Source: an uncultured Candidatus Saccharibacteria bacterium
GTDB lineage: Bacteria; Patescibacteriota; Saccharimonadia; Saccharimonadales; UBA4665
NCBI GenBank assembly: GCA_964513385.1
Contig: CAZEMC010000007.1
Coordinates: 21,552-85,551, forward strand
Length of the DNA stretch: 64,000 bases
Reading direction: 5' to 3'
The translations under genes and the position numbers were made by a program. Shown here one piece after another: positions 1 through 61,652 of this stretch. The notes beneath the pieces were generated by a model. It was not told where the DNA came from. It did not search any database and saw only the letters and a program-made list of their open reading frames with translations. Numbering within the stretch: the stretch's first letter is position 1; every line of letters starts with the position of its first letter.

Positions 1-26
1 TTCCTTTGGAATTTAATTTTATTTGC

Positions 27-103
27 GTCATCCTGGACTTGATTCAGGATCTAAAGCTCACAATTACTGAGTGCTGTAGATTCCGGGTCGAGCCCGGAAT
101 GAC
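27..103. repeat. GTCAT...ATGAC hairpin-ended MITE-like element, copy 1
   Basis: GTCATCCTGGACTTGATTCAGGAT ... ATTCCGGGTCGAGCCCGGAATGAC. Each end is itself a stem-loop. The same architecture occurs at 10114, 24463, 25468 and 60262. Confidence 0.7.
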
Positions 104-4962: not shown

Positions 4963-5126
4963 GAATGACCAAACCCCAAGCACCAATTACCAAGCAATGA
5001 CTGAATGACCGAAGGTCCGGATGACCGATTTTGGTCATTTGTGTATTTGGACATTGGTGCTTGATTGGTCACCCGCCTGTCTGGCCGACAGGACGGACAG
5101 GTTGCGATTTGGTGCTTGGTTATTTT
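4963..5126. repeat. ACCAA/TTGGT-word palindromic element, copy 1
   Basis: AATGACCAAACCCCAAGCACCAATTACCAAGCAATGAC ... TTGGTCATTTGTGTATTTGGACATTGGTGCTTGATTGGTCA. Homologous to 13969-14146 and 22982-23140. Fills the dcd/tmk spacer. Confidence 0.7.
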
Positions 5127-9456: not shown

Positions 9457-9534
9457 GAGGGCTAAGGGTTTAGGGCAAAGGGCTGAGTTCGTCGGTGGAG
9501 CGTACTTTGCCCTTTGCCCTCCTTGCTTTGCCCT
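9457..9534. repeat. word-tract hairpin (GGGCAAA / TTTGCCC)
   Basis: 11-bp core stem GGGCAAAGGGC (9473-9483) / GCCCTTTGCCC (9509-9519), flanked by more GGGC/GCCC words. Lies in the secE-nusG spacer. Confidence 0.55.
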
Positions 9535-10214: not shown

Positions 10215-10274
10215 GCGGGGCAAACGTTGCCCTTTGTCCTCCTTGCTTCTAACTCGTCTGCTATAGTAGGTAGT

Positions 10275-13118: not shown

Positions 13119-13132
13119 AAGCCTAGTATAGC

Positions 13133-13227
13133 GAAAGGAGAATTAAGAAGATAGAAGGAAGAATGAAGGGCTTTAAAAGAATGAAAGGCGAAGCCCCCTA
13201 CCTTCTATCTTCCTCCTTCTTTATTCT
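13133..13227. repeat. word-tract hairpin (GAAGRA / TYCTTC)
   Basis: 12-bp core GAAGATAGAAGG (13147-13158) / CCTTCTATCTTC (13201-13212) within a C-free left tract and a G-poor right tract. Confidence 0.55.
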
Positions 13228-13968: not shown

Positions 13969-14146
13969 TAATGACCAAGCACCAAATCCCAATAACCAAT
14001 CAATGTCTGAATTCACGAATGACGGAATGACTCAACGGACGTGGTCATTTGGTCATTTAAGCATTTGTGAATTGCTTGGGTATTGGTGCTTGCGGCTTGG
14101 TTATTACTGCTTCACCTGGCCATTGCGATTTGGTGCTTGGTGCTTC
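13969..14146. repeat. ACCAA/TTGGT-word palindromic element, copy 2
   Basis: About 90% identical to copy 3 over ACCAAGC.CAAATCCCAAT.ACCAATCAATG.C.GAATTCACGAATGAC. The right half is TTGGT-rich. Confidence 0.7.
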
Positions 14147-18539: not shown

Positions 18540-18896
18540 TCCAGAAAACCTTTCACGGTTCCGGCCAACTTTTCACGGGGCGTTTGTCAGCCCAGCTTCC
18601 GCTGGGCTGACGAGCCTAGGGTACGTCCGGACGGTTCTTGGCTTGGTGCGTTGGCTGGATATCCGTGCACAGGGATGAGTGTGAAGCCTGCAAACGATTC
18701 CACATCCGTGATGACTTCCCACGTAGGCGTCTTATGGTCTGACCAGGGAAACCCGCGGGTTTCCCTACGCTCGGTAGCATCCTTGCTTCGCGGATGCTAG
18801 CCGGGCTACCTTTCCGGTCTGCAGACCGGGGATTAGAGAGACTCGCTGGTCGCGAGTCGCAACGGAATCTGCGACTAGCGTTGGTGACTCACCCAC
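18540..18896. other. ORF-free cluster of GC-rich perfect hairpins (candidate structured RNA or hairpin array)
   Basis: Hairpins at 18586-18611 (11 bp; the loop reads GGAA on the minus strand), 18746-18765 (20-nt perfect palindrome), 18777-18797, 18814-18829, 18840-18858 and 18856-18875. No ORF of 60 aa or more on either strand. Confidence 0.4.
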
Positions 18897-18995
18897 TGCG
18901 CGTTAGTGCACGAGGCGATAGCTGAGCTTTAGGGGATGGGAGACATGCTTCGAGTTCATTTCGAAGCATGTTGGGAAGGGTGAGCCCTTCCCTAA
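18897..18995 (+). repeat. modular V-element, copy A (5' box + variable hairpin + G-rich hairpin)
   Basis: GCGTTAGTGCACGAGGCGATAGCTGAGCTTTAGGGGATGGGAG, then ACATGCTTCGA-GTTCATT-TCGAAGCATGT, then GGGAAGGG-TGAG-CCCTTCCC. Confidence 0.7.
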
Positions 18996-21037: not shown

Positions 21038-21090
21038 CGTTCTTCTAGTATAGCATGGGACTTTCGCAGAATGGCACATTCTGGAAAGCC

Positions 21091-21217
21091 GTTTACCATT
21101 TACCCTTCACCGTTTACCGTGCGTTACCCATTCACCATTTATCGTGCGGGCGTTATTCTTCATGGTAAACGGTTCACAGTGCATGTATGGTGAATGGAAA
21201 ATGGTGAACGGTGAATA
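21091..21217. repeat. complementary word tracts (TTTACC/TTCACC vs GGTAAA/GGTGAA)
   Basis: Left tract 21091-21140, right tract 21164-21217. Several alternative registers of pairing are possible. Confidence 0.55.
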
Positions 21218-22981: not shown

Positions 22982-23140
22982 ACCAAGTATAGCAAATAAC
23001 CAAGCGTCAAATCCCAATGACCAATCAATGGCCGAATTCACGAATGACCAAATATCCGTACGGCTTGGGGTCATGCACGCATTTGGACATTCGGGCATTC
23101 GTGCATTGATTGGTCATTAGTGCTTGTGACTCGGTCATTC
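22982..23140. repeat. ACCAA/TTGGT-word palindromic element, copy 3
   Basis: AACCAAGCGTCAAATCCCAATGACCAATCAATGGCCGAATTCACGAATGACC ... CATTGATTGGTCATTAGTGCTTG. Confidence 0.7.
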
Positions 23141-24372: not shown

Positions 24373-24462
24373 ACGATTAGCCCTTATTATACTCCTTGCC
24401 TGTCCAGGTAAATCCCGGAACTGACCCACATGCACTTTTCTAAAGACAAACATTTCCTCTCT

Positions 24463-24546
24463 GTCGTTCCGAACTCGTTTCGGAATCCATACGGTAGCAC
24501 GGACGTCCATCTCAACGCATGGATACTGAAACAAGTTCAGCATGAC
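24463..24546. repeat. GTCAT...ATGAC MITE-like element, copy 3
   Basis: Roughly 85% identical by eye to the reverse complement of copy 5 (60262-60345), including the core CCATACGGTAGCACGGACG. Sits inside the 15-bp inverted repeat 24425-24439 / 24548-24562. Confidence 0.75.
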
Positions 24547-24593
24547 AAAAAGTGCATGTGGGCAAGGTCCCGGAAGGATACAAGATGTGTAAG

Positions 24594-24775
24594 TTCCAAA
24601 ATCCAAATCACAAATTCCAAACAATACCAAAATTCCAAAAAACAAATGCCGCCCCGTTATTACTACGCGGTTGCCCTGTGTGAACCGACTCATAATCACG
24701 GTATGAAGCCGTTTGTAATGTAAGCTATTGGAATTTGTTTGTGATTTGGAGCTTGGAATTTGGAATTTTGGATTC
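24594..24775. repeat. large inverted repeat of TTCCAAA / TTTGGAA word tracts
   Basis: G-free left arm 24594-24641 and C-poor right arm 24727-24775, separated by about 85 nt. Confidence 0.65.
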
Positions 24776-25461: not shown

Positions 25462-25467
25462 TCTTTC

Positions 25468-25535
25468 GTCATTCCGAACTTGATTCGGAATCTTCTAAAG
25501 AGTCGTAAAAGATCCTGAATCAAGTTCAGGATGAC
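25468..25535. repeat. GTCAT...ATGAC MITE-like element, copy 4
   Basis: GTCATTCCGAACTTGATTCGGAAT-22 nt-CCTGAATCAAGTTCAGGATGAC. Fills the lemA-htpX spacer. Confidence 0.7.
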
Positions 25536-25560
25536 GAATCAGGAAGTCCAGTCAGTATTT

Positions 25561-26433: not shown

Positions 26434-29445
<3,012 letters not shown>

Positions 29446-35614: not shown

Positions 35615-35653
35615 TCCCCTGTCGTACGGTAGTCGTATAGTTGAATAGTCTTA

Positions 35654-35721
35654 TTGTCGGATAGTCTTATTTGAACTGTCTTCGACAATACGACAATCCA
35701 GACTGTCAGACTATCCGACAA
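35654..35721. repeat. 14-bp perfect inverted repeat in TAGTC-word leader
   Basis: TTGTCGGATAGTCT (35654-35667) / AGACTATCCGACAA (35708-35721). The right arm ends 3 nt before the tRNA-Trp 5' end. Confidence 0.6.
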
Positions 35722-39624: not shown

Positions 39625-39734
39625 GGCCCTAGTATAGCGTATCGGAGCAGATGCGTGGTGCCTATGTATAGTAGCTGGGTGTCACGGGCTTCCTGCCCTA
39701 TGGTGTTGCAGAACGCTTTTGGTATACTGCAGGT

Positions 39735-40352: not shown

Positions 40353-40407
40353 TGGTTACTGGTTTGTGGGCTATGATTAGGCTATGACACAGCGGAATCG
40401 GCATGTA

Positions 40408-40573
40408 GTGAACCCATCGCAAAACCCCATTCCGGCCAAAACCCGCAGTCTTGCACGCTGGAGCGCTCAGGCCACTCGTCGCGGTAACTACGGTTACGCC
40501 TCCTCCCGTCCTGAACACTCCAGCCCACAATCTGCAGGTTTTGACTCGAAAGCGGGTTTCGCAATGGGTTCAC
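40408..40573 (+). repeat. 165-nt rod-like hairpin element, copy 1
   Basis: Terminal stem GTGAACCCATCGCAAAACCC / GGGTTTCGCAATGGGTTCAC. Internal helices AAACCCGCAG/CTGCAGGTTT, CTGGAG/CTCCAG and GTAAC/GTTAC. Homologous to 56384-56548 in the opposite orientation. Confidence 0.75.
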
Positions 40574-41352
40574 TGCAAAGACTGGGGCGGTTGCCTGGTG
40601 GAAATTTCTGGGTGTTTGCGGTAACGCAAGCCTGGGCTGGGCTGTTCGGTTTGCTCCTGCTTGGCGCTGTGTGGGTGACGCAGTCTGTCACGTTGCCTTG
40701 GTTCGGGCGGTATGATTGGCTGCTTATCTTCGCCGTGATGATTCAGGCGATTATGCTGCTGGCGCGGCTACAAAAGCCGACCGAGCTTCTTATCGTGGCC
40801 GTATTCTATCTGCTCGGGCTTGGTATAGAGGTATTCCAGACGTCAAGCGCCGTGCAGGCTTGGGCGTATCCAGACTCGGGTTCGTTAGTGCTCGGCAATG
40901 CGCCGCTGTTCGCAGGGTTCCTGTACGCGGCTATCGGTAGCTACATCTTCCGGTTGTGGCGCATCACGCGGATGGAGTTTACGAACTATCCTCGCCAACG
41001 ATATGCTGCGCTGCTTGCGCTTGCGATATACATCAATTTCTTTACCGCGCACGTCCTATACGATGTAAGCTACCTGCTACTTCTTGCAGCTCTCATTCTT
41101 TTCTGGCGGACACGTGCGTCGTATGTAAACAACGGTAAAAAGCGTCATATGCCATTCCTCTTGCCAGTACTTATCGCTCCCCTGCTGATACTGCTTGCTG
41201 AAAAATTCGCTGCCTTTGCACAGCTCTGGGTCTACACCGAAGAACCGAACTCACTGAGCAAAATCCTCACCTGGCTCCTCCTTCTGCTCTTCAGCTGCAT
41301 TATCGTCGACCTGCTCCGTTCTCATAGCGGTCCAAGCAGCACGACTAGATAA
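40564..41352 (+). CDS. DUF817 family membrane protein
   Basis: Typical DUF817-like TM pattern (FAVTQAWAGLFGLLLLG...YDWLLIFAVMIQ). ATG 40564 lies inside the right arm of the rod element. Confidence 0.7.
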   Translation: MGSLQRLGRLPGGNFWVFAVTQAWAGLFGLLLLGAVWVTQSVTLPWFGRYDWLLIFAVMIQAIMLLARLQKPTELLIVAVFYLLGLGIEVFQTSSAVQAWAYPDSGSLVLGNAPLFAGFLYAAIGSYIFRLWRITRMEFTNYPRQRYAALLALAIYINFFTAHVLYDVSYLLLLAALILFWRTRASYVNNGKKRHMPFLLPVLIAPLLILLAEKFAAFAQLWVYTEEPNSLSKILTWLLLLLFSCIIVDLLRSHSGPSSTTR

Positions 41353-43838: not shown

Positions 43839-43955
43839 AACTAGGAATTAGCAATTTGCAACTGGCAGGCGTATTGACACGGAGAGCTGGCGATAGCTGC
43901 GCTAAACTTTACATATCGTGTAGCGGCTAGTTTCTAGTTCCCAGTTGCTAGTTGC
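43839..43955. repeat. complementary word tracts (AACTAG/GCAACT vs CTAGTT/AGTTGC)
   Basis: GCAACTGG (43858-43865) pairs with CCAGTTGC (43941-43948). AACTAG (43839-43844) pairs with CTAGTT (43948-43953). Lies in the lysR/ino1 divergent region. Confidence 0.5.
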
Positions 43956-44072
43956 TGATGGCTAGATTTCTCACTATAACATTTACCTATACATATATAA
44001 CACAAATATATTTGAAAACTATAAGCTTGTTACTGTATGCTTGCCTGGTAACAAGTGGAGGTGTGAAGGCTC

Positions 44073-47372: not shown

Positions 47373-47503
47373 GGTTTCCTCTTGCCGAGTGCTCCGAACC
47401 TCTGTAAGTACTAAAATAGTATAATACATATGTAACAGAGTCAATAAGATTATATAGCATTTGGCTTACGCTTTATGCCCCTCCTCCAGCCCCCTTCCGG
47501 CCA

Positions 47504-47702
47504 TGAGCGTAGCGAACAAGGCGACCGCCATACTTCAGGGAATAGGAAACTACTGAGCGTAGCGAACAAGGCGACCGCCATACTTCAGGGAATAGGAAAC
47601 TACTGAGCGCAGCGCACGAGGCGATAGCCGAGCTTCAGGGGGAGGGGAACCTATCTCGAAGTGAATTCGAGATAGGTTCGGGAGGGGCGAGCCCCTCCCT
47701 TA
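47504..47702 (+). repeat. modular V-element, copy C, with its 5' box tandemly triplicated
   Basis: Two identical 50-nt units (47504-47553, 47554-47603), then a full element: TGAGCGCAGCGCACGAGGCGATAGCCGAGCTTCAGGGGGAGGGG, then AACCTATCTCGAA-GTGAA-TTCGAGATAGGTT, then GGGAGGGG-CGAG-CCCCTCCC. Confidence 0.8.
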
Positions 47703-47771: not shown

Positions 47772-48449
47772 ATGAAGTTCATCATGGAGGGGCCGGAGGC
47801 TGCCGCAAAGGCGGTCGCCGCACAACTTATCACCGCTGTCAAAGCGACAAAACCGACCATCTGGCTGGTGTGCGGAGGTTCGAATATACCGACCGAGGTC
47901 GAAATCATGAATCAGCTGCGCGAGGCGGCGCCGGACAGCTTGGGGAGCCTGCTTATTTTGCCGATGGACGAGCGATATGGCCCGCCCGGCCACGCCGACA
48001 GCAACTACAAGCAGCTGCAAGACGCTGGGTTCGACCCAGGCAAGGCACTGTGGATGGACGTGCTGGAACGTAACTTGCCCCTGCCCGAGACCGTCGATTA
48101 CTACGGCGGTCTGGTGGAAGCGGCGTTCGCTTCCGCACAGGTTGTCGTTGGCCTCTTCGGCCTCGGCACCGATGGCCACACGGCCGGCGTACTGCCTGGC
48201 AGCCCGGCGGTGACAGAAGCAGCCACTACCGTGGTCGGGTACGATTCCCCGCCATTCGTCCGTCTGACGCTTACGCCTGGCCAGCTCGTCAAGACCACGG
48301 CTGCGTTCGTGTTGGCGTATGGCGAAGCCAAAAAAGAGCCGCTGGAACGGCTCCGGGCTAACCAAGAAGACTTGCAGCAGCTTCCTTCCAAGCTACTCTA
48401 CGACATCCCCGAAGTCTCCGTCTATAACGACCAGCTGGGAACAGAATGA
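47772..48449 (+). CDS. pgl: 6-phosphogluconolactonase
   Basis: LVCGGSN, LPMDERYG and GLGTDGHTAG motifs. Confidence 0.85.
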   Translation: MKFIMEGPEAAAKAVAAQLITAVKATKPTIWLVCGGSNIPTEVEIMNQLREAAPDSLGSLLILPMDERYGPPGHADSNYKQLQDAGFDPGKALWMDVLERNLPLPETVDYYGGLVEAAFASAQVVVGLFGLGTDGHTAGVLPGSPAVTEAATTVVGYDSPPFVRLTLTPGQLVKTTAAFVLAYGEAKKEPLERLRANQEDLQQLPSKLLYDIPEVSVYNDQLGTE

Positions 48450-48452
48450 AAA

Positions 48453-48526
48453 AGTTTATAGTTGATAGTTTACAGTTTGTAGTTAGCACGGGTGAACTAG
48501 CAACTAACAACTATAAACTATTTACT
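48453..48526. repeat. word-tract hairpin (TAGTT / AACTA)
   Basis: GTTTATAGTTG (48454-48464) pairs with CAACTATAAAC (48508-48518). The arms are nearly C-free and G-free respectively. Confidence 0.55.
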
Positions 48527-48543
48527 ACAACCGGAGGTCGTGT

Positions 48544-49467
48544 ATGAAAATAGCTATTCAGGGCTTGGGGCGCATGGGCATGCAGATAGCCCGCAAACTG
48601 GCCGAAAGCGGCGAGCATACGGTCATCGCGCATAACCGCAGTCATGAGCCTATCGACGAAGCTGTGGGCTATGGCGCGGTCAGGGCATACGAAAAGCAAG
48701 ACGTGCTGGACGCGTTCGGGGGTGACCAGGTCGTGCTGTGGATAATGCTCCCCGCCGAAATCGTCGATGCCCAGGTCGACGAGTGGCTTACGCTGCTGCC
48801 GAAAGGCTCCATCATCATCGATGGCGGTAACTCCGACTTCCGGAGTACTAAAAAACTGAACGAAACGGTAACGGCTGCCGGTATGCAGCTGCTCGATGCC
48901 GGTGTTTCGGGCGGAGTCTGGGGCTACCAAAACGGTTTTCCTATAATGTGCGGCGGCGACAGCGTCGAGGCATTCGCGGTACTTGAACCGGCCCTCAAGA
49001 CGTTGGTGCAGCCGGGCGGTATGTACTACCACTTCGGCCCAAGCGGTGCGGGCCACTACGTCAAGATGGTGCACAACGCCATAGAGTACGGCATGATGCA
49101 GTCGCTCGGCGAAGGCTTCCGTATGCTGCACGACGGCCCATACCAAGGCTTGGATTTGGCACAGGCGGCCGACCTCTGGCAACACCACAGTGTCATTACC
49201 AGCTGGCTAACCGAACTCAGCCGCGATGCGTTTGCAGAAAACCCCGAACTGGAAGGTATTTCCGGGTATGTGGCCGAAAGCGGCGAAGCCCGCTGGACAC
49301 TGGAGGTTGCTAAAGACAGGGGCATTACCCTGCCCTCTATACAGGCGGCGTTCGATGTTCGCGTGGCGAGTCAAAACGGCGAAACCAATTTCGCCACCAA
49401 AGTCGTCGCCGCCCAGCGCAACAAATTCGGCGGACACAACCTGAATGGCGAAGGCGCAGCCAAGTAA
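48544..49467 (+). CDS. gnd: 6-phosphogluconate dehydrogenase, short (YqeC-like) form
   Basis: N-terminal Rossmann GLGRMG and HYVKMVHNAIEYGMMQ. Confidence 0.85.
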   Translation: MKIAIQGLGRMGMQIARKLAESGEHTVIAHNRSHEPIDEAVGYGAVRAYEKQDVLDAFGGDQVVLWIMLPAEIVDAQVDEWLTLLPKGSIIIDGGNSDFRSTKKLNETVTAAGMQLLDAGVSGGVWGYQNGFPIMCGGDSVEAFAVLEPALKTLVQPGGMYYHFGPSGAGHYVKMVHNAIEYGMMQSLGEGFRMLHDGPYQGLDLAQAADLWQHHSVITSWLTELSRDAFAENPELEGISGYVAESGEARWTLEVAKDRGITLPSIQAAFDVRVASQNGETNFATKVVAAQRNKFGGHNLNGEGAAK

Positions 49468-50832: not shown

Positions 50833-50841
50833 CCTCTGCAA

Positions 50842-50940
50842 TGAGCGGAGCGAACAAGGTGAAAGCCGAACTTCAGGGGATGGGAGCTTTCTTTTGCATT
50901 CATTTCAAAAGAAAGTGGGAGGGGTGAGCCCCTCCCTTTA
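50842..50940 (+). repeat. modular V-element, copy D
   Basis: TGAGCGGAGCGAACAAGGTGAAAGCCGAACTTCAGGGGATGGGAG, then CTTTCTTTTG-CATTCATTT-CAAAAGAAAG, then GGGAGGGG-TGAG-CCCCTCCC-TTTA. Confidence 0.75.
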
Positions 50941-51038: not shown

Positions 51039-52244
51039 ATGAAAATACTGATGCTCGGGTGGGAATTGCCGCCGCATAACAGCGGCGGGTTGGGCGTCGC
51101 TTGCTATGGCTTGTGCCGGGCTTTGGCACACCGTGGCGTCGACATCGAGTTCGTGGTGCCCTATCACGAGCAGCATGACATCGACTTTATGAAGATTACG
51201 CCGGCGCACCAACAGGGCGCCAAAGTGGTGCTGGAAAGCGGCGGCGCCTACGACAGCCGCCTGTACATCCACCCCGATGGCCGCGAGGAGCGCTTGGACA
51301 TCTACGGCCAGGTCAAGGCGTACGAGCATGCGGTGGCCCGCTTGGCGACCGAAACCGAGTTCGATATTATCCACGCTCACGACTGGCTAACCTTCCGCGC
51401 CGGTTTGCGCGCCAAAATGTCATCCGGTGCTCCGCTTATCCTGCATGTCCACTCCATAGAACGTGACCGCGCTGGCGGCACGCCCGGCAACCCGCTGGTG
51501 CGCGATATCGAAGAGACCGTTATGATGATGGCCGATGGTATCTGTGCTGTCAGTCAACTGACGAAAGACGCCATCGTAGCCGATTATGGCATCCCGGCCG
51601 ACAAGATTCACGTCATTCACAACCACTTGAACGACCTGCCCGAAGCGCATGCAAGCGACGACACGATGTACCCATACATCGCCGCCATGCGCGGCCAGGG
51701 CTACAAGGTCGTGACGAACGTCGGCCGCCTGACGGTGCAAAAGGGGCTGCCGAACCTGCTGCGCGCTGCCCGCATCGTTGTCGACCACGAGCCCAAGACA
51801 CTGTTCCTTATTGTCGGCGGCGGTGACATGCTTCACGAGCTTATCCAGCTTTCGGCAGATTTAGGCCTCAGCAAAAACGTTCTCTTTACCGGCTTCCAGC
51901 GCGGCCAGGCTTGGCGCGATGCGTTCGCACTGGCCGACCTGTTCGTCATGCCATCGGTTTCGGAACCGTTCGGCCTGACACCACTGGAGAGCATCGGCTT
52001 CGGCACGCCGGCGCTCATAAGCAAACAATCGGGCGTGAGCGAAGTGCTGCAGAACGCGCTGAAGGTCGACTTCTGGGATATCACTAAGATGGCCGACCAG
52101 ATTACGTCCGTCATACAGAACCCTGCGCTGCCTGAAACGCTGCAGCACAATGCCATCCGCGAGCTGCGGGGTATGCATTGGGGGCAGTCGGCCGAAAAGG
52201 TCACGAACCTGTATCAGCAGTACGCCGCCGGAGTCACGACATGA
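51039..52244 (+). CDS. glycogen/alpha-glucan synthase-like glycosyltransferase (GT4/GT5)
   Basis: KILMLGWELPPHNSGGLGVACYGL N-terminus and the PSVSEPFGLTPLE motif. Confidence 0.8.
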   Translation: MKILMLGWELPPHNSGGLGVACYGLCRALAHRGVDIEFVVPYHEQHDIDFMKITPAHQQGAKVVLESGGAYDSRLYIHPDGREERLDIYGQVKAYEHAVARLATETEFDIIHAHDWLTFRAGLRAKMSSGAPLILHVHSIERDRAGGTPGNPLVRDIEETVMMMADGICAVSQLTKDAIVADYGIPADKIHVIHNHLNDLPEAHASDDTMYPYIAAMRGQGYKVVTNVGRLTVQKGLPNLLRAARIVVDHEPKTLFLIVGGGDMLHELIQLSADLGLSKNVLFTGFQRGQAWRDAFALADLFVMPSVSEPFGLTPLESIGFGTPALISKQSGVSEVLQNALKVDFWDITKMADQITSVIQNPALPETLQHNAIRELRGMHWGQSAEKVTNLYQQYAAGVTT

Positions 52245-52249
52245 GTAGC

Positions 52250-52340
52250 GGTAATAAGAAAAAAGTAATAAGTAATAAGGGGCAAGCTTCGCTTGCTGCA
52301 GTCAAAACCCTTTTTACCTTTTACCTTTTACCTTTTACCT
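52250..52340. repeat. complementary word tracts (GTAATAA vs four tandem CCTTTTA)
   Basis: C-free left tract 52250-52282. The right tract 52308-52340 is a 7-nt tandem array. Complementarity is imperfect. Confidence 0.5.
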
Positions 52341-52358
52341 TTGGAACGGAGTTTCAAT

Positions 52359-53570
52359 ATGTCTAAAAAGGCCATCGTCCTCTACCTCCACGTCCACCAG
52401 CCATACCGCGTGCGCAACTACACCATCCTCGATGCCGGCCACCGGCACGACTACTTCGATGCGCCCTACGAAGACCGCACCAGCAACGAACGTATTATCC
52501 ACAAAGTGGCCGAAAAGTCGTACCTGCCGACCAACAAAGTGCTGCTGGAGCTGCTGCACAAACACCCCGAGTTCAAACTCAGCATGTCCATAACCGGTAC
52601 CATCCTCGACCAGCTGGAGCAGTGGTCGCCCGAAGCGCTTCGGTCGTTCCAGGAACTCGTTCAGACCGGCCGGGTCGAAATCGTCGCCGAAACGTATCAC
52701 CACAGCCTGGCGTTTTTCTACTCCCGCCAGGAGTTCGAAGCCCAGGTACAGATGCACCGTGAAAAGGTTCAGCAGCTCTTCGGTGTTACGCCGACAGCTT
52801 TCCGCAACACCGAGCTGTCGTATAACAACGATGTCGCATACTGGGCCGACAAAGCCGGCTACAAAGTCGTCTTGAGCGAGGGCTGGGACCCGATACTTAA
52901 ATGGCGCAGTCCGAACTATGTCTACCGTCCTAGCTATACCGAAAACATCAAGCTGCTCATGAAGAACTACAAGCTCAGCGATGATGTCGCGTTCCGCTTT
53001 GGCAATCACGCTTGGAGCGAGTGGCCGCTGACTGCCGACAAGTACACTCACTGGCTCAGCGAGACGGGCGATGCGACTAACTTCAACCTGTTCATGGATT
53101 ACGAAACCTTCGGTGAGCATCAGTGGGACGAATCGGGTATTTTCGATTTCCTCCGGCACCTGCCCGGTGAATGGCTCAAGGGCCATGACCATACGTTCAT
53201 GACGGTCAGTGAAGCTGCCGACGCGTTCGAACCCGTCGATACCGTCGATACGCCATACACGGTCACCTGGGCCGACACCGAACGCGACCTGTCTGCGTGG
53301 CTGGGCAACAGCATGCAAGATTCCTCCATCCATGCCCTGTACGAACTCGAAGACGCCGTGAAAGGTTCCGGCGACCTGGCGCTGATAGAAGATTGGCGCC
53401 GGCTGACTACCAGTGACCACTTCTACTACATGTGTACCAAATGGTGGAGCGACGGTGACATCCACGCCTACTTCAGCCCGTACGAAACACCGTACGAAGC
53501 GTTTGTGGCGTTCATGAATGCCTGGCATGACCTGCAGTTCCGCCTTGTCGAAAAAGGAGCAACCGTATGA
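52359..53570 (+). CDS. glycoside hydrolase family 57 (alpha-glucan acting)
   Basis: LHVHQPYR, FRNTELSYN and MDYETFGEH motifs. Start at ATG 52359. Confidence 0.85.
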   Translation: MSKKAIVLYLHVHQPYRVRNYTILDAGHRHDYFDAPYEDRTSNERIIHKVAEKSYLPTNKVLLELLHKHPEFKLSMSITGTILDQLEQWSPEALRSFQELVQTGRVEIVAETYHHSLAFFYSRQEFEAQVQMHREKVQQLFGVTPTAFRNTELSYNNDVAYWADKAGYKVVLSEGWDPILKWRSPNYVYRPSYTENIKLLMKNYKLSDDVAFRFGNHAWSEWPLTADKYTHWLSETGDATNFNLFMDYETFGEHQWDESGIFDFLRHLPGEWLKGHDHTFMTVSEAADAFEPVDTVDTPYTVTWADTERDLSAWLGNSMQDSSIHALYELEDAVKGSGDLALIEDWRRLTTSDHFYYMCTKWWSDGDIHAYFSPYETPYEAFVAFMNAWHDLQFRLVEKGATV

Positions 53571-53640
53571 CGTATGACGTATCCCGTATAACGTATGAAG
53601 AAGCACCCCGAAATACGAAATACTTTATACGGTATACTGT
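53565..53640. repeat. word-tract hairpin (CGTATGA / TATACG words)
   Basis: CCGTATAACGTAT pairs with ATACTTTATACGG with one mismatch. Overlaps the GH57 stop. Confidence 0.5.
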
Positions 53641-53657
53641 GAAATCGGAGATTTCAC
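53639..53657 (+). promoter_or_regulatory. SD-occluding hairpin directly upstream of the GH15 start codon
   Basis: GTGAAATC (53639-53646), loop GGA, GATTTCAC (53650-53657). The GGAG SD (53647-53650) lies in the loop and stem; ATG at 53658. Confidence 0.45.
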
Positions 53658-55598
53658 ATGGGTAGGCCAGTTATCTTAGGTAACGGTAGTCTGACGGTGG
53701 GCCTGAACGAACAGGGCCTGGTGCATGATTTCTACTACCCATACGTCGGGCTCGATAACCTGACGACCGCCCGCAGCACCGACCACAAAATAGGTGTGCA
53801 TGTCGACGGCAGGTTCTCGTGGATCGACGATGGAACGTGGAACGTGTCCGTGGAGTTCGAGCAGGACGCACTGGTCAGCAATGTCACCATGCAGCACGAC
53901 GACCTACGGTTGCGGCTGCATTTCAGCGACTTTGTCGACCACACGCTGAACGTCTTTTGCCGCCGGGTAACCGTGCAGAACCTGGCGGACCACGAGCGGA
54001 CTGTCCGGCTGTTTTTCCACCAGGTTTTCCAGATTTCGCGTGGCGGCCGGGGTGATACAGCCCTGTTCGTACCGGAAGCGAACTACCTGTTGGACTATAA
54101 AGGGCGCTGCGCACTGCTCATTTTCGGCCAGGCGGGCAACCATAACGCCCTCTTCGACCAGTACTGCGTCGGTAACTACGGCATAGAGGGCAAGGAAGGC
54201 ACCTGGCGCGATGCCGAAGACGGCGAGCTGAGCGGCAACCCGGTAGAGCATGGTGGCGTCGATTCGGTTTTGCGACTGACGCTGGAGCTGGGCGGCAACG
54301 AAGGCCAAACGGCCGACTACTGGGTCATAGCGGCCGATTCTCAATTCTCGGCCGAGAAGGTCCACCGCAAGCTGCTGACCGACGGGCTGCAGGACCGGCT
54401 CGACAAAACGCGCAAACATTGGTACGAATGGCTCGACATCGCTCGGGACGAAATGGGCGGCATGAATGAGGGCGAACGGGCCATGATAAAGAAATCGCTC
54501 ATGGTCATAAAGGCACATACCGATAAGCGCGGCGGCATTATCGCCAGCTGCGATTCGTCTATTTATAACTATGGCCGCGACTACTACAGCTACGTCTGGC
54601 CACGCGACGGCGCCTACGCCATGTGGCCGCTCATACGGCTCGGCTACACCGAGGAACCAAGGAAATTCTTCGAATTCTGCCGCGATATACTCCACCCCGA
54701 CGGTTACCTGCTGCACAAATACCAGCCCGACCGCGCCATCGGCAGCACCTGGCATCCGCTGGTGCACGGCAAGCACGCAGAACTGGCGATACAGGAAGAC
54801 GAAACGGCCATTGTGCTCTACATGCTCGGCGAGTATTTCGAGGAAAGCAAAGACAGAGACTATGTCAGCAGCTTGTACGTGACTCTGGTGCAACCGGCAG
54901 CGAACTTTTTAGCGGGGTTCCGTGACGAGCAGACAGGTCTGCCCCATGCCAGCTACGACCTCTGGGAAGAAAAATTCGCGACGCATACCTACACTGTTTC
55001 TGTGACCTATCAGGCGCTGCTGACGGCCGCCCAGTTCGCTGACCTGTTCGAGTACCCTGACGATGCGGTGGCCTGGCGCGCGGCTGCCGGCGAAATCGCC
55101 AAGGGCGTCCAAATACTGTTCGACCCCGGTCGCGGTACGCTCCGCAAGGGCTTTTTGCTGCAAGATGACGGCTCACTCCAGTTCGACAACACACTGGATG
55201 TTTCCAGCCTGTTCGCCGTCTCTACGTTCGGGCCCAAGGAATTCGGCAAGGAGCAACTGCTGAGCACGGTGGCCGCTATAGAGTCGACACTGCTCGAGCA
55301 GTCGCCGTCGGGCGGTTCGCCGCGCTACGAGCACGATACGTATTTTGCCGGTCAATCCACCTACACGGGCAATCCGTGGTTCGTAACGACGCTATGGATA
55401 GCGCAGTACTACATACAACACGGCAACAGAGAACGCGGCAAACAGCTTATAGACTGGACGATTGCGCATGCCTTGCCAAGCGGTGTCCTGAGTGAGCAGG
55501 TAGACCCCGGAACCGGCGCACCGTTGTCTGTGGCGCCACTTGTGTGGAGTCATGCGGAGCTTATCAATACGCTGCTTGACCTGCACATCGAACAGTAG
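53658..55598 (+). CDS. glycoside hydrolase family 15 (glucoamylase-like)
   Basis: SYVWPRDGAYAMW and the C-terminal (alpha/alpha)6 motifs NPWFVTTLW and PLVWSHAE. Confidence 0.85.
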   Translation: MGRPVILGNGSLTVGLNEQGLVHDFYYPYVGLDNLTTARSTDHKIGVHVDGRFSWIDDGTWNVSVEFEQDALVSNVTMQHDDLRLRLHFSDFVDHTLNVFCRRVTVQNLADHERTVRLFFHQVFQISRGGRGDTALFVPEANYLLDYKGRCALLIFGQAGNHNALFDQYCVGNYGIEGKEGTWRDAEDGELSGNPVEHGGVDSVLRLTLELGGNEGQTADYWVIAADSQFSAEKVHRKLLTDGLQDRLDKTRKHWYEWLDIARDEMGGMNEGERAMIKKSLMVIKAHTDKRGGIIASCDSSIYNYGRDYYSYVWPRDGAYAMWPLIRLGYTEEPRKFFEFCRDILHPDGYLLHKYQPDRAIGSTWHPLVHGKHAELAIQEDETAIVLYMLGEYFEESKDRDYVSSLYVTLVQPAANFLAGFRDEQTGLPHASYDLWEEKFATHTYTVSVTYQALLTAAQFADLFEYPDDAVAWRAAAGEIAKGVQILFDPGRGTLRKGFLLQDDGSLQFDNTLDVSSLFAVSTFGPKEFGKEQLLSTVAAIESTLLEQSPSGGSPRYEHDTYFAGQSTYTGNPWFVTTLWIAQYYIQHGNRERGKQLIDWTIAHALPSGVLSEQVDPGTGAPLSVAPLVWSHAELINTLLDLHIEQ

Positions 55599-55665
55599 CG
55601 TAGAACGACGAATGAAGAAAGACGAAGATGGATGTGCCTCTTCGTTCTTCATTCATCGTTCTACG
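55599..55665. repeat. long word-tract hairpin (GAAGAA/CGAA vs TTCGTTCTTC), terminator-like without a U-tract
   Basis: Left arm 55599-55627 and right arm 55640-55665 form about 26 bp with one mismatch and a 3-nt bulge. Starts 1 nt after the GH15 stop. Confidence 0.65.
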
Positions 55666-55731
55666 TTCGGAGGCGACATCTAAAAATTCCAGCACGACGG
55701 CCGGAATCTCTAATACACCAAAATACAGAAC

Positions 55732-55938
55732 CTAGTGTTTTCGGGGCTTGACTTCGTTGCGGCCAAGATTTTTCTTGGTCTCTACGAACAGCACGTGCTT
55801 GCGCAGCTTGGGGCTGTACTTTTTCAAACTCAACTTTTCGGTTGTGTTCTGCGTGTTCTTGCTTGTGTAGTAAATGCGCTCGCCGGACTCTTCGCTTACG
55901 AGCCCGACTAGTTTGCGCTTGTCACCTTTTTTCGCCAT
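55732..55938 (-). CDS. rpmG: 50S ribosomal protein L33 (Cys-less form, C-terminally extended)
   Basis: [33 protein letters not shown] matches the L33 core. Confidence 0.85.
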
Positions 55939-56144: not shown

Positions 56145-56357
56145 TTATGCTTTGTCAACAGGTTTTTCCGGAACGACCACCCAACAGATAATGTATGCCA
56201 GAAATGCAGGAAAGAAACCGAAGAGGAGCAGCGCCACTGCTATAAGCCGTACGACGACAGGGTCGATGGCGAAGTATTCCGCTACCCCGCCACATACGCC
56301 GGCAATCATTTTGTTTGTCGTAGAACGATATAAGCGCTTGGGTTCTTGTTGTGTCAT
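56145..56357 (-). CDS. PspC domain-containing membrane protein
   Basis: KMIAGVCGGVAEYFAIDPVVVRL followed by one TM segment. Confidence 0.8.
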   Translation of the reverse strand: MTQQEPKRLYRSTTNKMIAGVCGGVAEYFAIDPVVVRLIAVALLLFGFFPAFLAYIICWVVVPEKPVDKA

Positions 56358-56383
56358 ACCTTTAGTATACGCTCTTTCGTAAA

Positions 56384-56548
56384 TGAACTCATTTCAAAAC
56401 TCGCTTCCTAGGCTGAAACTTGCAGATTGTGGGCTGGAGTGTTTGGAGCGGGAGGAAGCGTAACGGTGTTTACGGTGACGAGTGCTCCGGGCGCTCTGGC
56501 CTGCAAGGCTGCGGGTTTTAGGCGGAATGGAGTTTTGAAATGAGTTCA
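56384..56548 (-). repeat. 165-nt rod-like hairpin element, copy 2
   Basis: Perfect 19-bp terminal stem TGAACTCATTTCAAAACTC / GAGTTTTGAAATGAGTTCA. The interior aligns with the reverse complement of 40408-40573. Confidence 0.75.
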
Positions 56549-56550
56549 AT

Positions 56551-56576
56551 AAAAAACCTAGCCATTTCCGGCTAGG
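56551..56576 (-). terminator. intrinsic terminator after the tRNA-Thr/Tyr/Thr cluster
   Basis: Minus strand reads CCTAGCC-GGAAAT-GGCTAGG followed by TTTTTT. Confidence 0.75.
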
Positions 56577-56588
56577 TTCGGTATTCTG

Positions 56589-56663
<75 letters not shown>

Positions 56664-58484: not shown

Positions 58485-58580
58485 CGGTACCCTTCAGTAT
58501 AGCATAGGCAGAACGGTGTACGAAGGGCTGACCGAAACATGCGCAATGAACCGAAGATAGAGGCACGGCTTTGCTATATA

Positions 58581-60248: not shown

Positions 60249-60261
60249 GACTCACCTCGTT

Positions 60262-60345
60262 GTCATGCTGAACTTGTTTCAGCACCCATGCGTTCATATG
60301 AGCGTCCGTGCTACCGTATGGGTCCTGAAACAAGTTCAGGATGAC
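60262..60345. repeat. GTCAT...ATGAC MITE-like element, copy 5
   Basis: GTCATGCTGAACTTGTTTCAGCA-core-CCTGAAACAAGTTCAGGATGAC. Reverse-complement homologue of copy 3. Confidence 0.75.
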
Positions 60346-60356
60346 AAGACCACGAC

Positions 60357-61613: not shown

Positions 61614-61652
61614 TCAGGCTCTCAGGCTCTCAGGCTCTCAGGCTCTCAGGCC
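61614..61652. repeat. 8-nt tandem repeat (TCAGGCTC x4.9)
   Basis: Read directly. Overlaps the trpS stop and its last 4 codons (GLRA). Confidence 0.9.

What the first reader, a model, noticed from the sequence alone, without database searches (positions are those of the whole stretch)
55599..55665. Genome-wide grammar: each intergenic spacer carries its own pair of complementary low-complexity word tracts
At least eleven spacers contain a left tract of 3-6 degenerate copies of a 5-8 nt word and a right tract of the reverse-complement word. The word differs at every locus. Examples: GGGCAAA (9457-9534), GAAGRA (13133-13227), TTTACC/TTCACC (21091-21217), TTCCAAA (24594-24775), TAGTC (35654-35721), AACTAG/GCAACT (43839-43955), TAGTT (48453-48526), GTAATAA versus four tandem CCTTTTA (52250-52340), CGTATGA (53565-53640), GAAGAA/CGAA (55599-55665, about 26 bp, nearly perfect) and the ACCAA family. 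Each arm is strongly strand-asymmetric and often lacks one nucleotide entirely. Most lie immediately after stop codons and lack U-tracts, so they may be I-shaped terminators or RNA-stability hairpins. The shared grammar with unshared vocabulary suggests local generation (slippage followed by inverted duplication) or selection for structure only.
Basis: seen in the sequence. Interest (0 to 1): 0.68.

Follow-up and report, generated by a model that had tools for sequence, protein, structure and literature searches.

The report
Seven-base-repeat hairpins between genes
Many gaps between genes in this tiny Saccharimonadales (candidate phyla radiation) bacterium hold long imperfect hairpins whose arms are stuttered copies of a seven-base word, often taken from the neighbouring gene end. 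They look like fast-turnover products of replication slippage and strand switching rather than terminators, and in tightly coupled operons a tiny reading frame still carries ribosomes across them.

Summary
An inverted-repeat scan finds 22 repeats (score >=12) in 13.6 kb of non-coding DNA, against 0.36 in shuffles and 1 in 49.7 kb of coding DNA.

The shared "grammar" is a 7-nt period. Self-match in the hairpin regions is 0.46, 0.38 and 0.34 at lags 7, 14 and 21, against about 0.25 elsewhere.

The window comes from a Saccharimonadales (TM7) genome. Heptamer hairpins are patchy across the order and turn over quickly. A sister species (85-92% nt identity) has the same hairpin at one spacer, a different word at two, an unrelated spacer at one, a single unpaired array at one, and overlapping genes at two.

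Several words are copies of the local gene end. One example is CGTATGA, which contains the GH57 stop codon.

At three ancestrally overlapping junctions, a small ORF runs from the old ATG to a stop overlapping the new start. This holds for 46 of 50 expanded spacers across the order, against 6.2 expected. These hairpins are therefore translated and are not terminators.

Hairpins fold worse on the sense strand, and non-heptameric spacers at the same junctions show no excess structure.

Best reading: locally generated slippage plus template-switch quasi-palindromes that are tolerated rather than selected. The closest known cases are cyanobacterial heptamer repeats and the Nostoc trnL P6b hairpin.

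The parts
55599..55665 (.). Focal hairpin between convergent GH15 (+) and rpmG/L33 (-). The left arm 55599-55628 reads CGTAGAA CGACGAA TGAAGAA AGACGAA GA. The right arm 55639-55665 reads TCTTCGT TCTTCAT TCATCGT TCTACG. It starts directly after the GH15 stop codon.
   Evidence: z is -8.5 (+) and -10.5 (-). Arm lag-7 values are 0.65 and 0.75. A weaker homologue is present in L001 and L005, and the window has a 10-nt templated extension.
55672..55712 (-). Canonical intrinsic terminator of rpmG: stem AUUCCGGCC...GCUGGAAU followed by UUUUU. It folds only on the - strand. It shows that ordinary terminators exist beside the heptamer hairpin.
   Evidence: Energies are -15.4 kcal/mol on - and -6.8 on +. 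Relatives have AAAAACTCCAGC...GCTGGAGTTTTT at the same place.
53564..53640 (+). CGTATGA hairpin in the GH57>GH15 spacer. The first unit is the GH57 gene end (..ACC GTA TGA). The left array is CGTATGA x5 and the right arm is its inverted copy.
   Evidence: It is conserved with 2 substitutions in sister species L011. L001 has an ACCAA element there instead.
53567..53665 (+). Relay ORF of 32 codons. Its ATG overlaps the GH57 stop (ATGA) and its TAG overlaps codons 2-3 of GH15 (ATGGGTAG). It reads through the CGTATGA hairpin.
   Evidence: There are 0 stops in this frame and 2 in each of the other two frames.
52250..52342 (+). GTAATAA / CCTTTTA hairpin in the GT5>GH57 spacer. This is a 114-nt insert, where 70 of 74 relatives in the first set have overlap or <=23 nt. 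The right arm (TTTTACC)4.4 is perfect. CCTTTTTAC is the reverse complement of the ancestral GTAAAAAGG.
52241..52366 (+). Relay ORF of 41 codons. It runs from the fossil GH57 start (ATGA with the GT5 stop) to a TAA overlapping the new GH57 start (ATGTCTAA).
   Evidence: The other frames contain 2 and 5 stops.
48449..48530 (+). TAGTT hairpin in the pgl>gnd spacer. The left arm is TTTATAG TTGATAG TTTACAG TTTGTAG and the right arm is AACTAGC AACTAAC AACTATA AACTATT. Sister species L011 has GTGAAAT/CACATTT here instead.
48446..48547 (+). Relay ORF of 33 codons with ATGA overlaps at both ends (pgl stop and gnd start). The in-frame CAG in the third unit replaces a TAG.
   Evidence: The other frames contain 3 and 6 stops.
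9457..9534 (-). GGGCAAA hairpin between secE and nusG. It begins at the secE stop. The sister genome has only the C-type array (CTAAACC CTAGAGC CTAAGCC CTACACC), unpaired.
13133..13227 (-). GAAGRA hairpin between the YgjP-like gene and a histidine kinase. One arm is C-free and the other G-free. It abuts an extended -10 (CGCTATACT, 13125-13133) of the downstream gene.
21089..21217 (-). TTTACC/TTCACC hairpin inside a 265-nt holin>secG spacer. In the sister genome the two genes overlap (ATGA). A direct repeat GAAGAACG flanks the insert.
24591..24775 (.). TTCCAAA hairpin in the divergent spacer between the DD-carboxypeptidase (-) and LemA (+).
43839..43965 (.). AACTAGG/GCTAGTT heptamer hairpin in the divergent spacer between LysR (-) and inositol-1-phosphate synthase (+).
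35640..35721 (.). TAGTC hairpin directly upstream of tRNA-Trp.
13970..14145 (.). ACCAA family copy. It is a dispersed hairpin element with 7-8-nt periodic arms. Other copies are at 4964-5122 and 22995-23139, and one sits in the GH57>GH15 spacer of L001.
26442..26472 (+). Unpaired heptamer array (GAACGAA/GAACGGA x4.4), 8 nt after the M48 peptidase stop. It is an example of an array without an inverted partner.

Best explanation
The spacers carry quasi-palindromes built from degenerate tandem heptanucleotide repeats.

Proposed origin (inferred):
1. A 7-nt stretch at a gene junction is amplified by replication slippage. The stretch is often the very end of the upstream gene or the first codons of the downstream gene.
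2. An inverted copy of the array is made by intramolecular or cross-fork template switching. This is the same process that 'corrects' quasi-palindromes. It yields a direct-inverted-direct layout that leaves a working ribosome-binding site and start codon downstream.
3. The two arms then expand, contract, re-template each other and decay. Words and whole hairpins therefore turn over much faster than the flanking genes.

Selection acts mainly as a filter. The structures persist only in places that do not break expression. At ancestrally overlapping, translationally coupled junctions, only versions that keep an open frame from the old ATG to a stop overlapping the new start survive. These 'relay ORFs' mean that ribosomes read through the hairpins.

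At the RNA level the hairpins are 20-40-bp imperfect stems without U-tracts, lying right after stop codons. They may incidentally slow 3' exonucleases, attract RNase III or modulate coupling, but they are not required terminators.

Shown: the anatomy, the 7-nt period, the local derivation of several words, the rapid turnover, the relay ORFs and the strand asymmetry. Inferred: the slippage and template-switch steps and the near-neutrality.
For: Period 7:
- Lag-7/14/21 self-match is 0.457/0.381/0.335.
- 37 of 62 non-coding tandem arrays in about 265 kb of Saccharimonadales spacers have period 7.
- 24 of those 37 have an inverted partner and 13 do not.

Local origin of the words:
- The CGTATGA array starts with the conserved GH57 C-terminus ..T V stop.
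- In L011 the pgl>gnd array starts ATGAAAA GTGAAAT .., which is the gnd start codon heptamer.
- The GT5>GH57 arms match the ancestral GTAAAAAGG and its reverse complement CCTTTTTAC. The fossil CGGAGTCACGACATGAGTA lies upstream and CGGAGTTTCAATATGTCTA downstream.
- The holin>secG insert is flanked by GAAGAACG.

Stepwise growth:
- The sister genome has a single unpaired array at secE>nusG where the window has both arms.
- The focal hairpin's right arm has a 10-nt insertion that is the reverse complement of the left flank.
- The perfect (TTTTACC)4.4 arm is only 5/7 complementary to its partner. This indicates that one arm expanded independently.

Ancestral state and turnover:
- Median spacer length is -4 to -7, 4, and 4 to 6 nt at GT5>GH57, GH57>GH15 and pgl>gnd over 33-159 genomes.
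- Against the sister species at 85-92% nt identity, the outcome is: same hairpin at 1 spacer, a different word at 2, an unrelated spacer at 1, a single arm at 1, and no spacer at 2.

Not selected for sense-RNA structure:
- Non-heptameric spacers at the same junctions have mean z 0.0, against -2.1 for heptameric ones.
- The sense strand folds worse than the antisense in 12 of 14 window hairpins in tandem spacers (heptameric plus dispersed-family) and in 15 of 18 heptameric spacers in other lineages. The mean difference is +4.9 kcal/mol, p 0.016.

Filtering by expression:
- 46 of 50 expanded spacers are bridged by an ORF, against 6.2 expected.
- The bridging frame has 0 stops, while the other two frames average 2.3.

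Literature: heptameric SSRs are over-represented in bacterial intergenic DNA, and this has been attributed to polymerase slippage (PMC4692102).
Against: - No direct evidence of slippage. No +-7-nt length polymorphism could be examined, because only one strain-level contig was found and it is identical to the window.
- Similar words recur at non-orthologous loci and in different genomes. Examples are GGGCAAA/CCCTAAG in the window, L070, L172 and L173; TTTACC in the window, L084 and L101; and ACCAAGC in the window, L001 and L028. This could mean dispersal rather than local birth.
- Complete replacement of a hairpin between conserved flanks (DDcp>M24) is easier to explain by insertion of a mobile cassette.
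- In several spacers the hairpin sits exactly between a stop codon and an extended -10 promoter. That is where an insulating terminator would be useful.
- Why the unit is 7 nt is not explained by anything tested here.
- Gene calls outside the Pfam-checked genes are from a crude home-made caller.
Confidence: 0.55

Rival explanations
1. The hairpins are selected RNA structures. They would be U-tract-less ('I-shaped') terminators, 3'-exonuclease barriers or RNase III sites. Selection would act on structure only, which lets the sequence drift.
For: - The hairpins begin 0-24 nt after stop codons in tandem spacers and stop short of the next RBS or promoter.
- Several abut an extended -10 of the next gene.
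- The focal hairpin follows the last gene of the glycogen operon, and no other terminator faces GH15.
- A hairpin is present at the same spacer with different words in the window and in L011.
Against: - Three hairpins lie inside translated relay ORFs within an operon, and three lie in divergent spacers.
- They are absent at the same junctions in close relatives, where the genes overlap.
- Non-heptameric spacers at the same junctions have no excess structure.
- Sense-strand folding is systematically weaker than antisense.
- Canonical terminators exist elsewhere in the genome.
Confidence: 0.2
2. The hairpins are copies of many small families of non-autonomous mobile hairpin elements (MITE/REP-like) that target gene ends. 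The heptamer stutter would be secondary.
For: - The window contains real dispersed hairpin families: ACCAA, a GTCATCCTGAAC family, and a 168-nt long-hairpin element that is absent from the orthologous site in two relatives.
- An ACCAA copy occupies the GH57>GH15 spacer in L001, where the window has CGTATGA.
- Words recur between genomes and loci.
Against: - The ten heptamer hairpins are singletons within 64 kb and among about 2 Mb of related loci, apart from their orthologues.
- Several words are continuous with, and copied from, the adjacent coding sequence.
- No conserved termini or target-site duplications were seen.
- Unpaired arrays and a single-arm stage exist.
Confidence: 0.15
3. The bridging frames are genuine micro-protein genes, and the repeats encode repetitive peptides.
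For: - 46 of 50 spacers have an open bridging frame.
- Short versions at GH57>GH15 share an RVG/GW-like motif.
- The window, L028 and L078 share FIV.S.QF...TTNYKL at pgl>gnd.
Against: - Peptides are unrelated between close relatives at the same junction. For example, MKKFIVDSLQ.. in the window corresponds to MKSEIGDMKY.. in L011.
- Lengths range from 7 to 108 codons.
- Most relatives have no spacer at all.
- The shared motifs are equally explained by shared nucleotide seeds.
- Only openness and the two stop/start overlaps are conserved, which fits translational coupling.
Confidence: 0.05
4. The heptamer arrays are multivalent binding sites for a sequence-specific protein, as proposed for the TAACTGA repeats of Beggiatoaceae.
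For: Tandem heptamers near start codons are proposed regulator sites in other bacteria (PMC4679880; bioRxiv 10.1101/2022.06.06.494920).
Against: The word differs at nearly every locus and between orthologous spacers. One protein could not read them all.
Confidence: 0.03

Closest known systems
P6b stem-loop of the tRNA-Leu(UAA) group I intron in Nostoc/Calothrix (PMC4476775)
   Same: The hairpin stem is built from two complementary series of degenerate 7-nt repeats (class I TDNGATT, class II NNTGAGT). Length changes occur by whole 7-nt units on either or both sides of the stem. One word class has been repeatedly replaced by another in related lineages.
   Different: It is a single locus inside a self-splicing intron with only two word classes, and it is cyanobacterial. 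Here there are many loci in intergenic or bridging-ORF positions, a different word at nearly every locus, and the host is a CPR bacterium.
Cyanobacterial STRR heptanucleotide repeats and the general excess of heptameric SSRs in bacterial intergenic DNA (cited in PMC4692102; the original papers are known to me but were not read here)
   Same: These are tandem heptamers concentrated in non-coding DNA, variable between relatives and attributed to polymerase slippage.
   Different: STRR are a few genome-wide consensus heptamers, mostly described as direct arrays. Here the words are locus-specific and about two thirds of the arrays are paired with an inverted copy.
GGGAATC repeats of Xanthomonas and GGGGA(C/T)T repeats of Nostoc PCC 7120 (PMC4692102)
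   Same: These are intergenic heptamer arrays of about 4 units. Length and sequence vary extensively between close species at the same spacers, and some occur as inverted pairs able to form stem-loops.
   Different: They have one G-rich word per genome and G-quadruplex potential. Here there is no common word and G4 motifs are not general.
TAACTGA direct repeats of marine Beggiatoaceae (PMC4679880)
   Same: These are heptamer arrays in spacers close to start codons.
   Different: They are a single conserved word, almost always in direct orientation (169 direct sets against 1 indirect), and were proposed as a regulator-binding site.
Quasi-palindrome template-switch mutagenesis (Ripley; Lovett laboratory; my own knowledge, not tested here)
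   Same: It explains templated insertions and changes that make one arm the exact complement of the other, as seen in the 10-nt extension of the focal hairpin.
   Different: It is known as a point or short-patch mutational mechanism in E. coli and yeast reporters. It has not been described as a genome-wide generator of spacer hairpins.
REP/BIME and MITE-type intergenic palindromes; I-shaped terminators of actinobacteria (my own knowledge)
   Same: These are post-stop intergenic hairpins without U-tracts that can stabilise upstream mRNA.
   Different: REP elements and MITEs have a conserved consensus in many copies. Terminator hairpins are short and GC-rich, and they do not sit inside translated frames.

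Membership tests
Canonical (L-shaped) intrinsic terminator | Short GC-rich stem (about 5-14 bp) and small loop, followed by a U-tract on the transcribed strand | tested here: not met
   Stems are 20-40 bp, loops are 13-130 nt, and the sense-strand tails have 0-4 T in 9 nt. None was flagged by the terminator scan. The neighbouring rpmG terminator does meet the definition.
I-shaped (U-tract-less) terminator / 3' stabiliser | Hairpin at the 3' end of a transcription unit, downstream of the last stop codon | tested here: inconclusive
   Met for the focal hairpin (after GH15, convergent with rpmG) and plausible for those followed by a -10 element. Not met for the three inside relay ORFs or the three in divergent spacers.
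I-shaped (U-tract-less) terminator / 3' stabiliser | Transcripts end or are protected at the hairpin | not testable with these tools
   No transcript 3'-end data are available.
Heptanucleotide SSR / STRR-type repeats | Tandem arrays with a 7-nt unit, concentrated in non-coding DNA | tested here: met
   Lag-7 autocorrelation. TRF calls period 7 for 9 of 15 arrays in the window and 37 of 62 in the order, with 14 in 1.7 Mb of coding DNA.
Heptanucleotide SSR / STRR-type repeats | A few genome-wide consensus heptamers | tested here: not met
   The word differs at nearly every locus and between orthologous spacers.
Nostoc P6b-type heptamer hairpin | Stem formed by two complementary series of 7-nt repeats, with word replacement between lineages | tested here: met
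   Both arms have lag-7 values of 0.45-0.89 (0.37-0.45 in the two longer ACCAA copies) and pair with each other. The word is replaced in the window relative to L011 at pgl>gnd and DDcp>M24.
Nostoc P6b-type heptamer hairpin | Located in the P6b region of the trnL group I intron | tested here: not met
   No intron is present. The hairpins lie between protein-coding genes.
MITE / REP-like mobile hairpin | Many similar copies with conserved termini, and insertion polymorphism | tested here: not met
   The heptamer hairpins are singletons. The feature is met instead by separate families in the window: ACCAA, the GTCATCCTGAAC family, and the 168-nt element at 40406-40575 and 56384-56551.
SSR contingency (phase-variation) locus | Repeat unit not divisible by 3, lying inside a translated frame or promoter | tested here: met
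   Heptamer arrays lie inside relay ORFs at three junctions.
SSR contingency (phase-variation) locus | Unit-number polymorphism within populations that switches expression | not tested
   Only one strain-level contig was found and it is identical to the window. Most arrays are degenerate and have only about 4 units.

The most novel reading that the evidence does not exclude
The heptamer arrays inside relay ORFs could act as a frame-shifting switch for translational coupling. A gain or loss of one 7-nt unit moves the bridging frame by +-1. Ribosomes coming from the upstream gene would then no longer terminate on the downstream start codon. This would give a genome-reduced CPR bacterium a heritable, reversible way to retune the expression of individual genes within an operon. 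The paired inverted array would supply the hairpin that promotes slippage.
Probability: 0.1. Interest if true: 0.8.

Novelty: new variant of a known kind. Interest (0 to 1): 0.6.

Why it matters
Heptamer repeats in bacterial spacers have been noted for over thirty years without an accepted origin or role. This material offers an unusually clear natural experiment on both questions.
- The same operon junctions can be followed across about 160 related genomes from the overlapping state, through a single array, to a full hairpin.
- The repeated word can be traced to the neighbouring codons.
- The constraint that survives, an open bridging frame with stop/start overlaps at both ends, is measurable.

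The data point to replication slippage plus template switching as a generator of new intergenic sequence, new ribosome-binding sites and new tiny ORFs in candidate phyla radiation genomes, which are usually seen as only shrinking.

There is also a warning for annotation. Hairpins that look like terminators can lie inside translated relay frames.

The heptamer hairpins and relay ORFs were not found in the papers searched for Saccharibacteria or Patescibacteria.

Tried and rejected
- Sliding-window MFE does not separate coding from non-coding DNA, because coding DNA is more GC-rich. I replaced it with an inverted-repeat scan with shuffles.
- A first whole-spacer z-score script timed out.
- Rfam gives only tRNAs and an L10 leader at gathering thresholds. 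A relaxed search around 56300-56620 gives chance-level hits only.
- The simple terminator scan finds no more sites than shuffles do, and none at the heptamer hairpins.
- The metagenome scan with GH57 found no relative closer than 81% amino-acid identity, so no strain-level repeat polymorphism could be examined. Exact-protein look-ups gave one identical contig and the sister species only.
- A covariation analysis of the focal hairpin was not pursued. Only three distinct sequences exist, and compensatory changes would not distinguish selection from arm-to-arm templating.
- A sequence-specific heptamer-binding protein was rejected because the words differ between loci.
- G-quadruplex and triplex ideas were not pursued, because most words lack G-runs and only some arms are purine-only.
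- A paper on 3' stem-loops in metagenomes has nothing on Patescibacteria.
Full report
ORGANISM AND LAYOUT

The window has about 55% G+C and carries tRNAs and an L10 leader. The GH15 glucoamylase next to the finding is 98% identical in protein to a Candidatus Saccharimonadales MAG (JBDHUJ01, GCA_039809105.1). It is 60-74% identical to about 80 other Saccharimonadales genomes. That MAG is a sister species, with 85-92% nucleotide identity in the flanking genes.

I built a rough gene map with a codon-usage caller and checked it with Pfam around the hairpins. The relevant arrangements are:
- secE>nusG
- YgjP-like>histidine kinase
- holin>secG
- DD-carboxypeptidase>M24 peptidase
- LemA>M48 peptidase
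- LysR<>Ino1 (divergent)
- the operon pgl-gnd-zwf / GT5-GH57-GH15, which converges on rpmG (L33)

Yes. Every listed site folds into a long imperfect hairpin.

An ungapped inverted-repeat scan finds 22 repeats (score >=12) in 13.6 kb of non-coding DNA. Dinucleotide shuffles give 0.36 (maximum 2 in 200 shuffles), and 49.7 kb of coding DNA holds 1.

The focal hairpin 55599-55665 has z -8.5 on the + strand and -10.5 on the - strand. The arm asymmetry is as described, with some arms lacking C or G entirely. None is followed by a U-tract.

An independent assembly of run SRR16481186 is identical over 52313-55774, so the hairpins are not assembly artefacts. That contig breaks inside the TTTTACC array.

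THE SHARED GRAMMAR IS A 7-NT PERIOD

Self-match in the hairpin regions is 0.457 at lag 7, 0.381 at lag 14 and 0.335 at lag 21. The remaining non-coding DNA is flat. Both arms of all sites except TAGTC are periodic. TAGTC has period 16.

TRF calls period 7 for 9 of 15 non-coding arrays in the window. Across about 265 kb of spacers from roughly 150 Saccharimonadales loci it calls period 7 for 37 of 62 arrays, and the next period (8) has 6. Twenty-four of the 37 period-7 arrays have an inverted partner. Thirteen do not, including 26442-26472 in the window.

The trait is patchy. Most other Saccharimonadales loci show no lag-7 signal, and the window has 1.6 inverted repeats per kb of spacer against 0.70 in the others.

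TURNOVER AND ANCESTRAL STATE

At GT5>GH57, GH57>GH15 and pgl>gnd the usual state in the order is overlap or a few bases. Medians are -4 to -7, 4, and 4 to 6 nt over 33-159 genomes. The window has 114, 87 and 94 nt. Other lineages have expanded the same junctions independently, with heptamer hairpins of their own words. Examples are GGTTAGA, ATTTCGA, CTCCTTA, GTGATTA and CAATAAA.

Comparison with the sister species gives the following:
- GH57>GH15 has the same hairpin with 2 substitutions.
- pgl>gnd has a different word, GTGAAAT/CACATTT.
- DD-carboxypeptidase>M24 has a different hairpin between conserved flanks.
- secE>nusG has only one unpaired array, corresponding to the window's right arm.
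- GT5>GH57 and holin>secG are overlapping genes (ATGA) with no spacer at all.
- The GH15/rpmG spacer is unrelated.

A more distant relative (L001) has a weaker homologue of the focal hairpin. It also has an ACCAA-family element where the window has CGTATGA.

WORDS COME FROM THE LOCAL SEQUENCE

Four junctions show this directly.
- GH57>GH15: the first unit of the CGTATGA array is the end of GH57. The sequence ..ACC GTA TGA encodes the conserved ..T V stop, and it contains the ancestral ATGA overlap.
- pgl>gnd in the sister species: the array begins ATGAAAA GTGAAAT AGGAGAT ATGAAAT. Its first unit is the old gnd start codon heptamer.
- GT5>GH57: relatives read GCATGAGTAAAAAGGC at this junction. 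The window keeps ATGAGTA and then has GTAATAA-type units. Its right arm starts CCCTTTTTACC, and CCTTTTTAC is the reverse complement of GTAAAAAGG. A second copy, CGGAGTTTCAATATGTCTAAAAAGG, supplies the working RBS and start. The result is a direct-inverted-direct layout.
- holin>secG: the insert is flanked by GAAGAACG.

The focal hairpin shows growth of one arm templated on the other. Its right arm has a 10-nt insertion absent from L001 and L005. That insertion is the reverse complement of CGTAGAACG beside the GH15 stop.

These patterns fit heptamer slippage followed by inverted copying through template switching. Both steps are inferred, not observed.

RELAY ORFS

At the three ancestrally overlapping junctions, an open frame starts at the fossil ATG that overlaps the upstream stop. 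It runs through the hairpin and ends at a stop codon overlapping the new start. The coordinates are 48446-48547 (33 codons), 52241-52366 (41 codons) and 53567-53665 (32 codons).

Across the order, 46 of 50 expanded spacers (>=45 nt) are bridged in this way, against 6.2 expected from shuffles. The figures are 17 of 18 for heptameric spacers and 29 of 32 for non-heptameric ones. The bridging frame has no stops, while the other two frames average 2.3.

Degenerate repeat positions avoid in-frame stops. For example, TTTACAG replaces TTTATAG in the third unit in the window, and the third unit likewise reads CAG rather than TAG in L028 and L078.

The peptides are unrelated between close relatives. 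What is conserved is passage of the ribosome, not a protein. These three hairpins are therefore translated and cannot be operon terminators.

Other hairpin spacers in the window are not bridged. These include secE>nusG, YgjP>kinase and holin>secG.

IS THE STRUCTURE SELECTED?

Three results argue against selection on the sense-strand RNA structure.
- Spacers at the same junctions without heptamers have no excess folding (mean z 0.0). Heptameric ones have mean z -2.1 (p 2e-5).
- The hairpins fold worse on the sense strand than on the antisense strand in 12 of 14 window hairpins in tandem spacers. The same holds in 15 of 18 heptameric spacers from other lineages, with a mean difference of +4.9 kcal/mol (p 0.016). 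Non-heptameric spacers show the opposite bias.
- The youngest-looking arm, a perfect (TTTTACC)4.4, is only 5/7 complementary to its partner.

Together these argue against selection for a stable mRNA hairpin. They favour a DNA-level generating process whose products are tolerated.

WHAT REMAINS POSSIBLE

Many genes here have an extended -10 (TGCTATACT-like) ending 6-9 nt before the start codon. There are 25 matches against 8.3 expected, which suggests leaderless mRNAs. Several hairpins sit exactly between a stop codon and such a promoter. The focal hairpin follows the last gene of its operon, while rpmG has its own canonical terminator beside it. A role as a U-tract-less terminator, insulator or 3' stabiliser for this subset cannot be excluded without transcript data.

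Word families also recur at unrelated loci and in different genomes, and true dispersed hairpin families coexist in the window. Some contribution from mobile elements is therefore likely.

COMPARISON WITH KNOWN SYSTEMS

Heptameric repeats are over-represented in bacterial intergenic DNA. They have been described in Calothrix/Nostoc (STRR), Xanthomonas (GGGAATC, with some inverted pairs) and Beggiatoaceae (TAACTGA) (PMC4692102, PMC4679880; also bioRxiv 10.1101/2022.06.06.494920).

The closest structural match is the P6b stem-loop of the Nostoc trnL intron. Its stem is built from two complementary series of 7-nt repeats, and its word class has been replaced repeatedly (PMC4476775).

The present case differs in four ways:
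- The words are locus-specific and traceable to neighbouring codons.
- There are many loci.
- The hairpins invade overlapping gene junctions, with relay ORFs.
- The host is a CPR bacterium.

No paper in the searched library links heptamers with Saccharibacteria or Patescibacteria.

I therefore rate this a new variant of a known kind.

Noticed in passing
window 40406-40575 and 56384-56551: There are two copies (79% identical, opposite orientation) of a ~168-nt element with 19-25-bp perfect terminal inverted repeats (TGAACTCATTTCAAAACTC). The 56384 copy is absent from the orthologous site in L011 and L001. One strand folds into a near-perfect ~75-bp hairpin (-102 kcal/mol, z -13) with 10-12 G-U pairs, and the other strand folds 36-41 kcal/mol worse. 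The well-folding strand is antisense to the flanking genes in both copies. There is no Rfam match.
   Followed up: partly
window 26-52, 24456-24548, 25465-25538, 60255-60347; L001 5985-6069; L168 GH57>GH15 spacer: A dispersed hairpin family has termini TTCGTCATYCC...GGRATGACGAA, and each arm is itself a small palindrome (TTCCGAACTTGATTCGGAA). At 25465-25538 its right end supplies the ATG of the M48 peptidase. At 60249-60356 it is spanned by a bridging ORF.
   Followed up: partly
window 18895-18991, 47500-47700, 50838-50938; L011 7971-8056: A further dispersed intergenic repeat family is present. It includes a 50-nt unit repeated 2.4 times at 47504-47624.
   Followed up: no
window, e.g. 10259-10267, 13125-13133, 21047-21055, 22986-22994, 39631-39639, 39720-39728, 58496-58504: An extended -10-like motif TGCTATACT occurs 25 times with <=1 mismatch, against 8.3 expected. 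It often ends only 6-11 nt before a start codon and has no Shine-Dalgarno sequence, which suggests many leaderless mRNAs in this organism.
   Followed up: partly
window 48524-48543, 52340-52358, 53640-53657, and the same position in L028, L070, L095, L129: A small 6-8-bp stem-loop presents the Shine-Dalgarno sequence (GGAG/GGGGG) in its loop immediately before the start codon of the downstream gene. It recurs after the heptamer hairpins at expanded junctions.
   Followed up: no
GH57>GH15 junction in many loci (e.g. L017, L020, L048, L099, L104, L115): Even short 25-60-nt spacers are bridged by tiny ORFs of 7-25 codons with stop/start overlaps at both ends. They share a loosely conserved RVG/GW motif (nucleotides GGGTGGG). 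Relay ORFs therefore seem to be a general feature of this operon in Saccharimonadales.
   Followed up: partly
window 61614-61651 (- strand): A perfect octamer array (CCTGAGAG) x4.8 starts in the last codons of the Trp-tRNA synthetase gene, contains its stop codon, and runs to the next gene's start. It is the same kind of gene-end stutter but with an 8-nt unit.
   Followed up: no
window 52606-52679: ARAGORN calls a tRNA-Arg(tcg) inside the GH57 coding sequence. Rfam does not report it, so it is probably a false positive.
   Followed up: no
L172 3492-4466 (sister genome, downstream of nusG): An IS1595-family transposase gene sits next to nusG in the sister species, where the window has no such gene. 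The region downstream of nusG therefore differs between the two genomes.
   Followed up: no
window 55612-55683: A 23-codon ORF (MKKDEDGCASSFFIHRSTFGGDI) runs through the focal hairpin. An ORF was also called at the equivalent place in relatives (L002 1148-1312). There is no evidence that it is more than chance.
   Followed up: no
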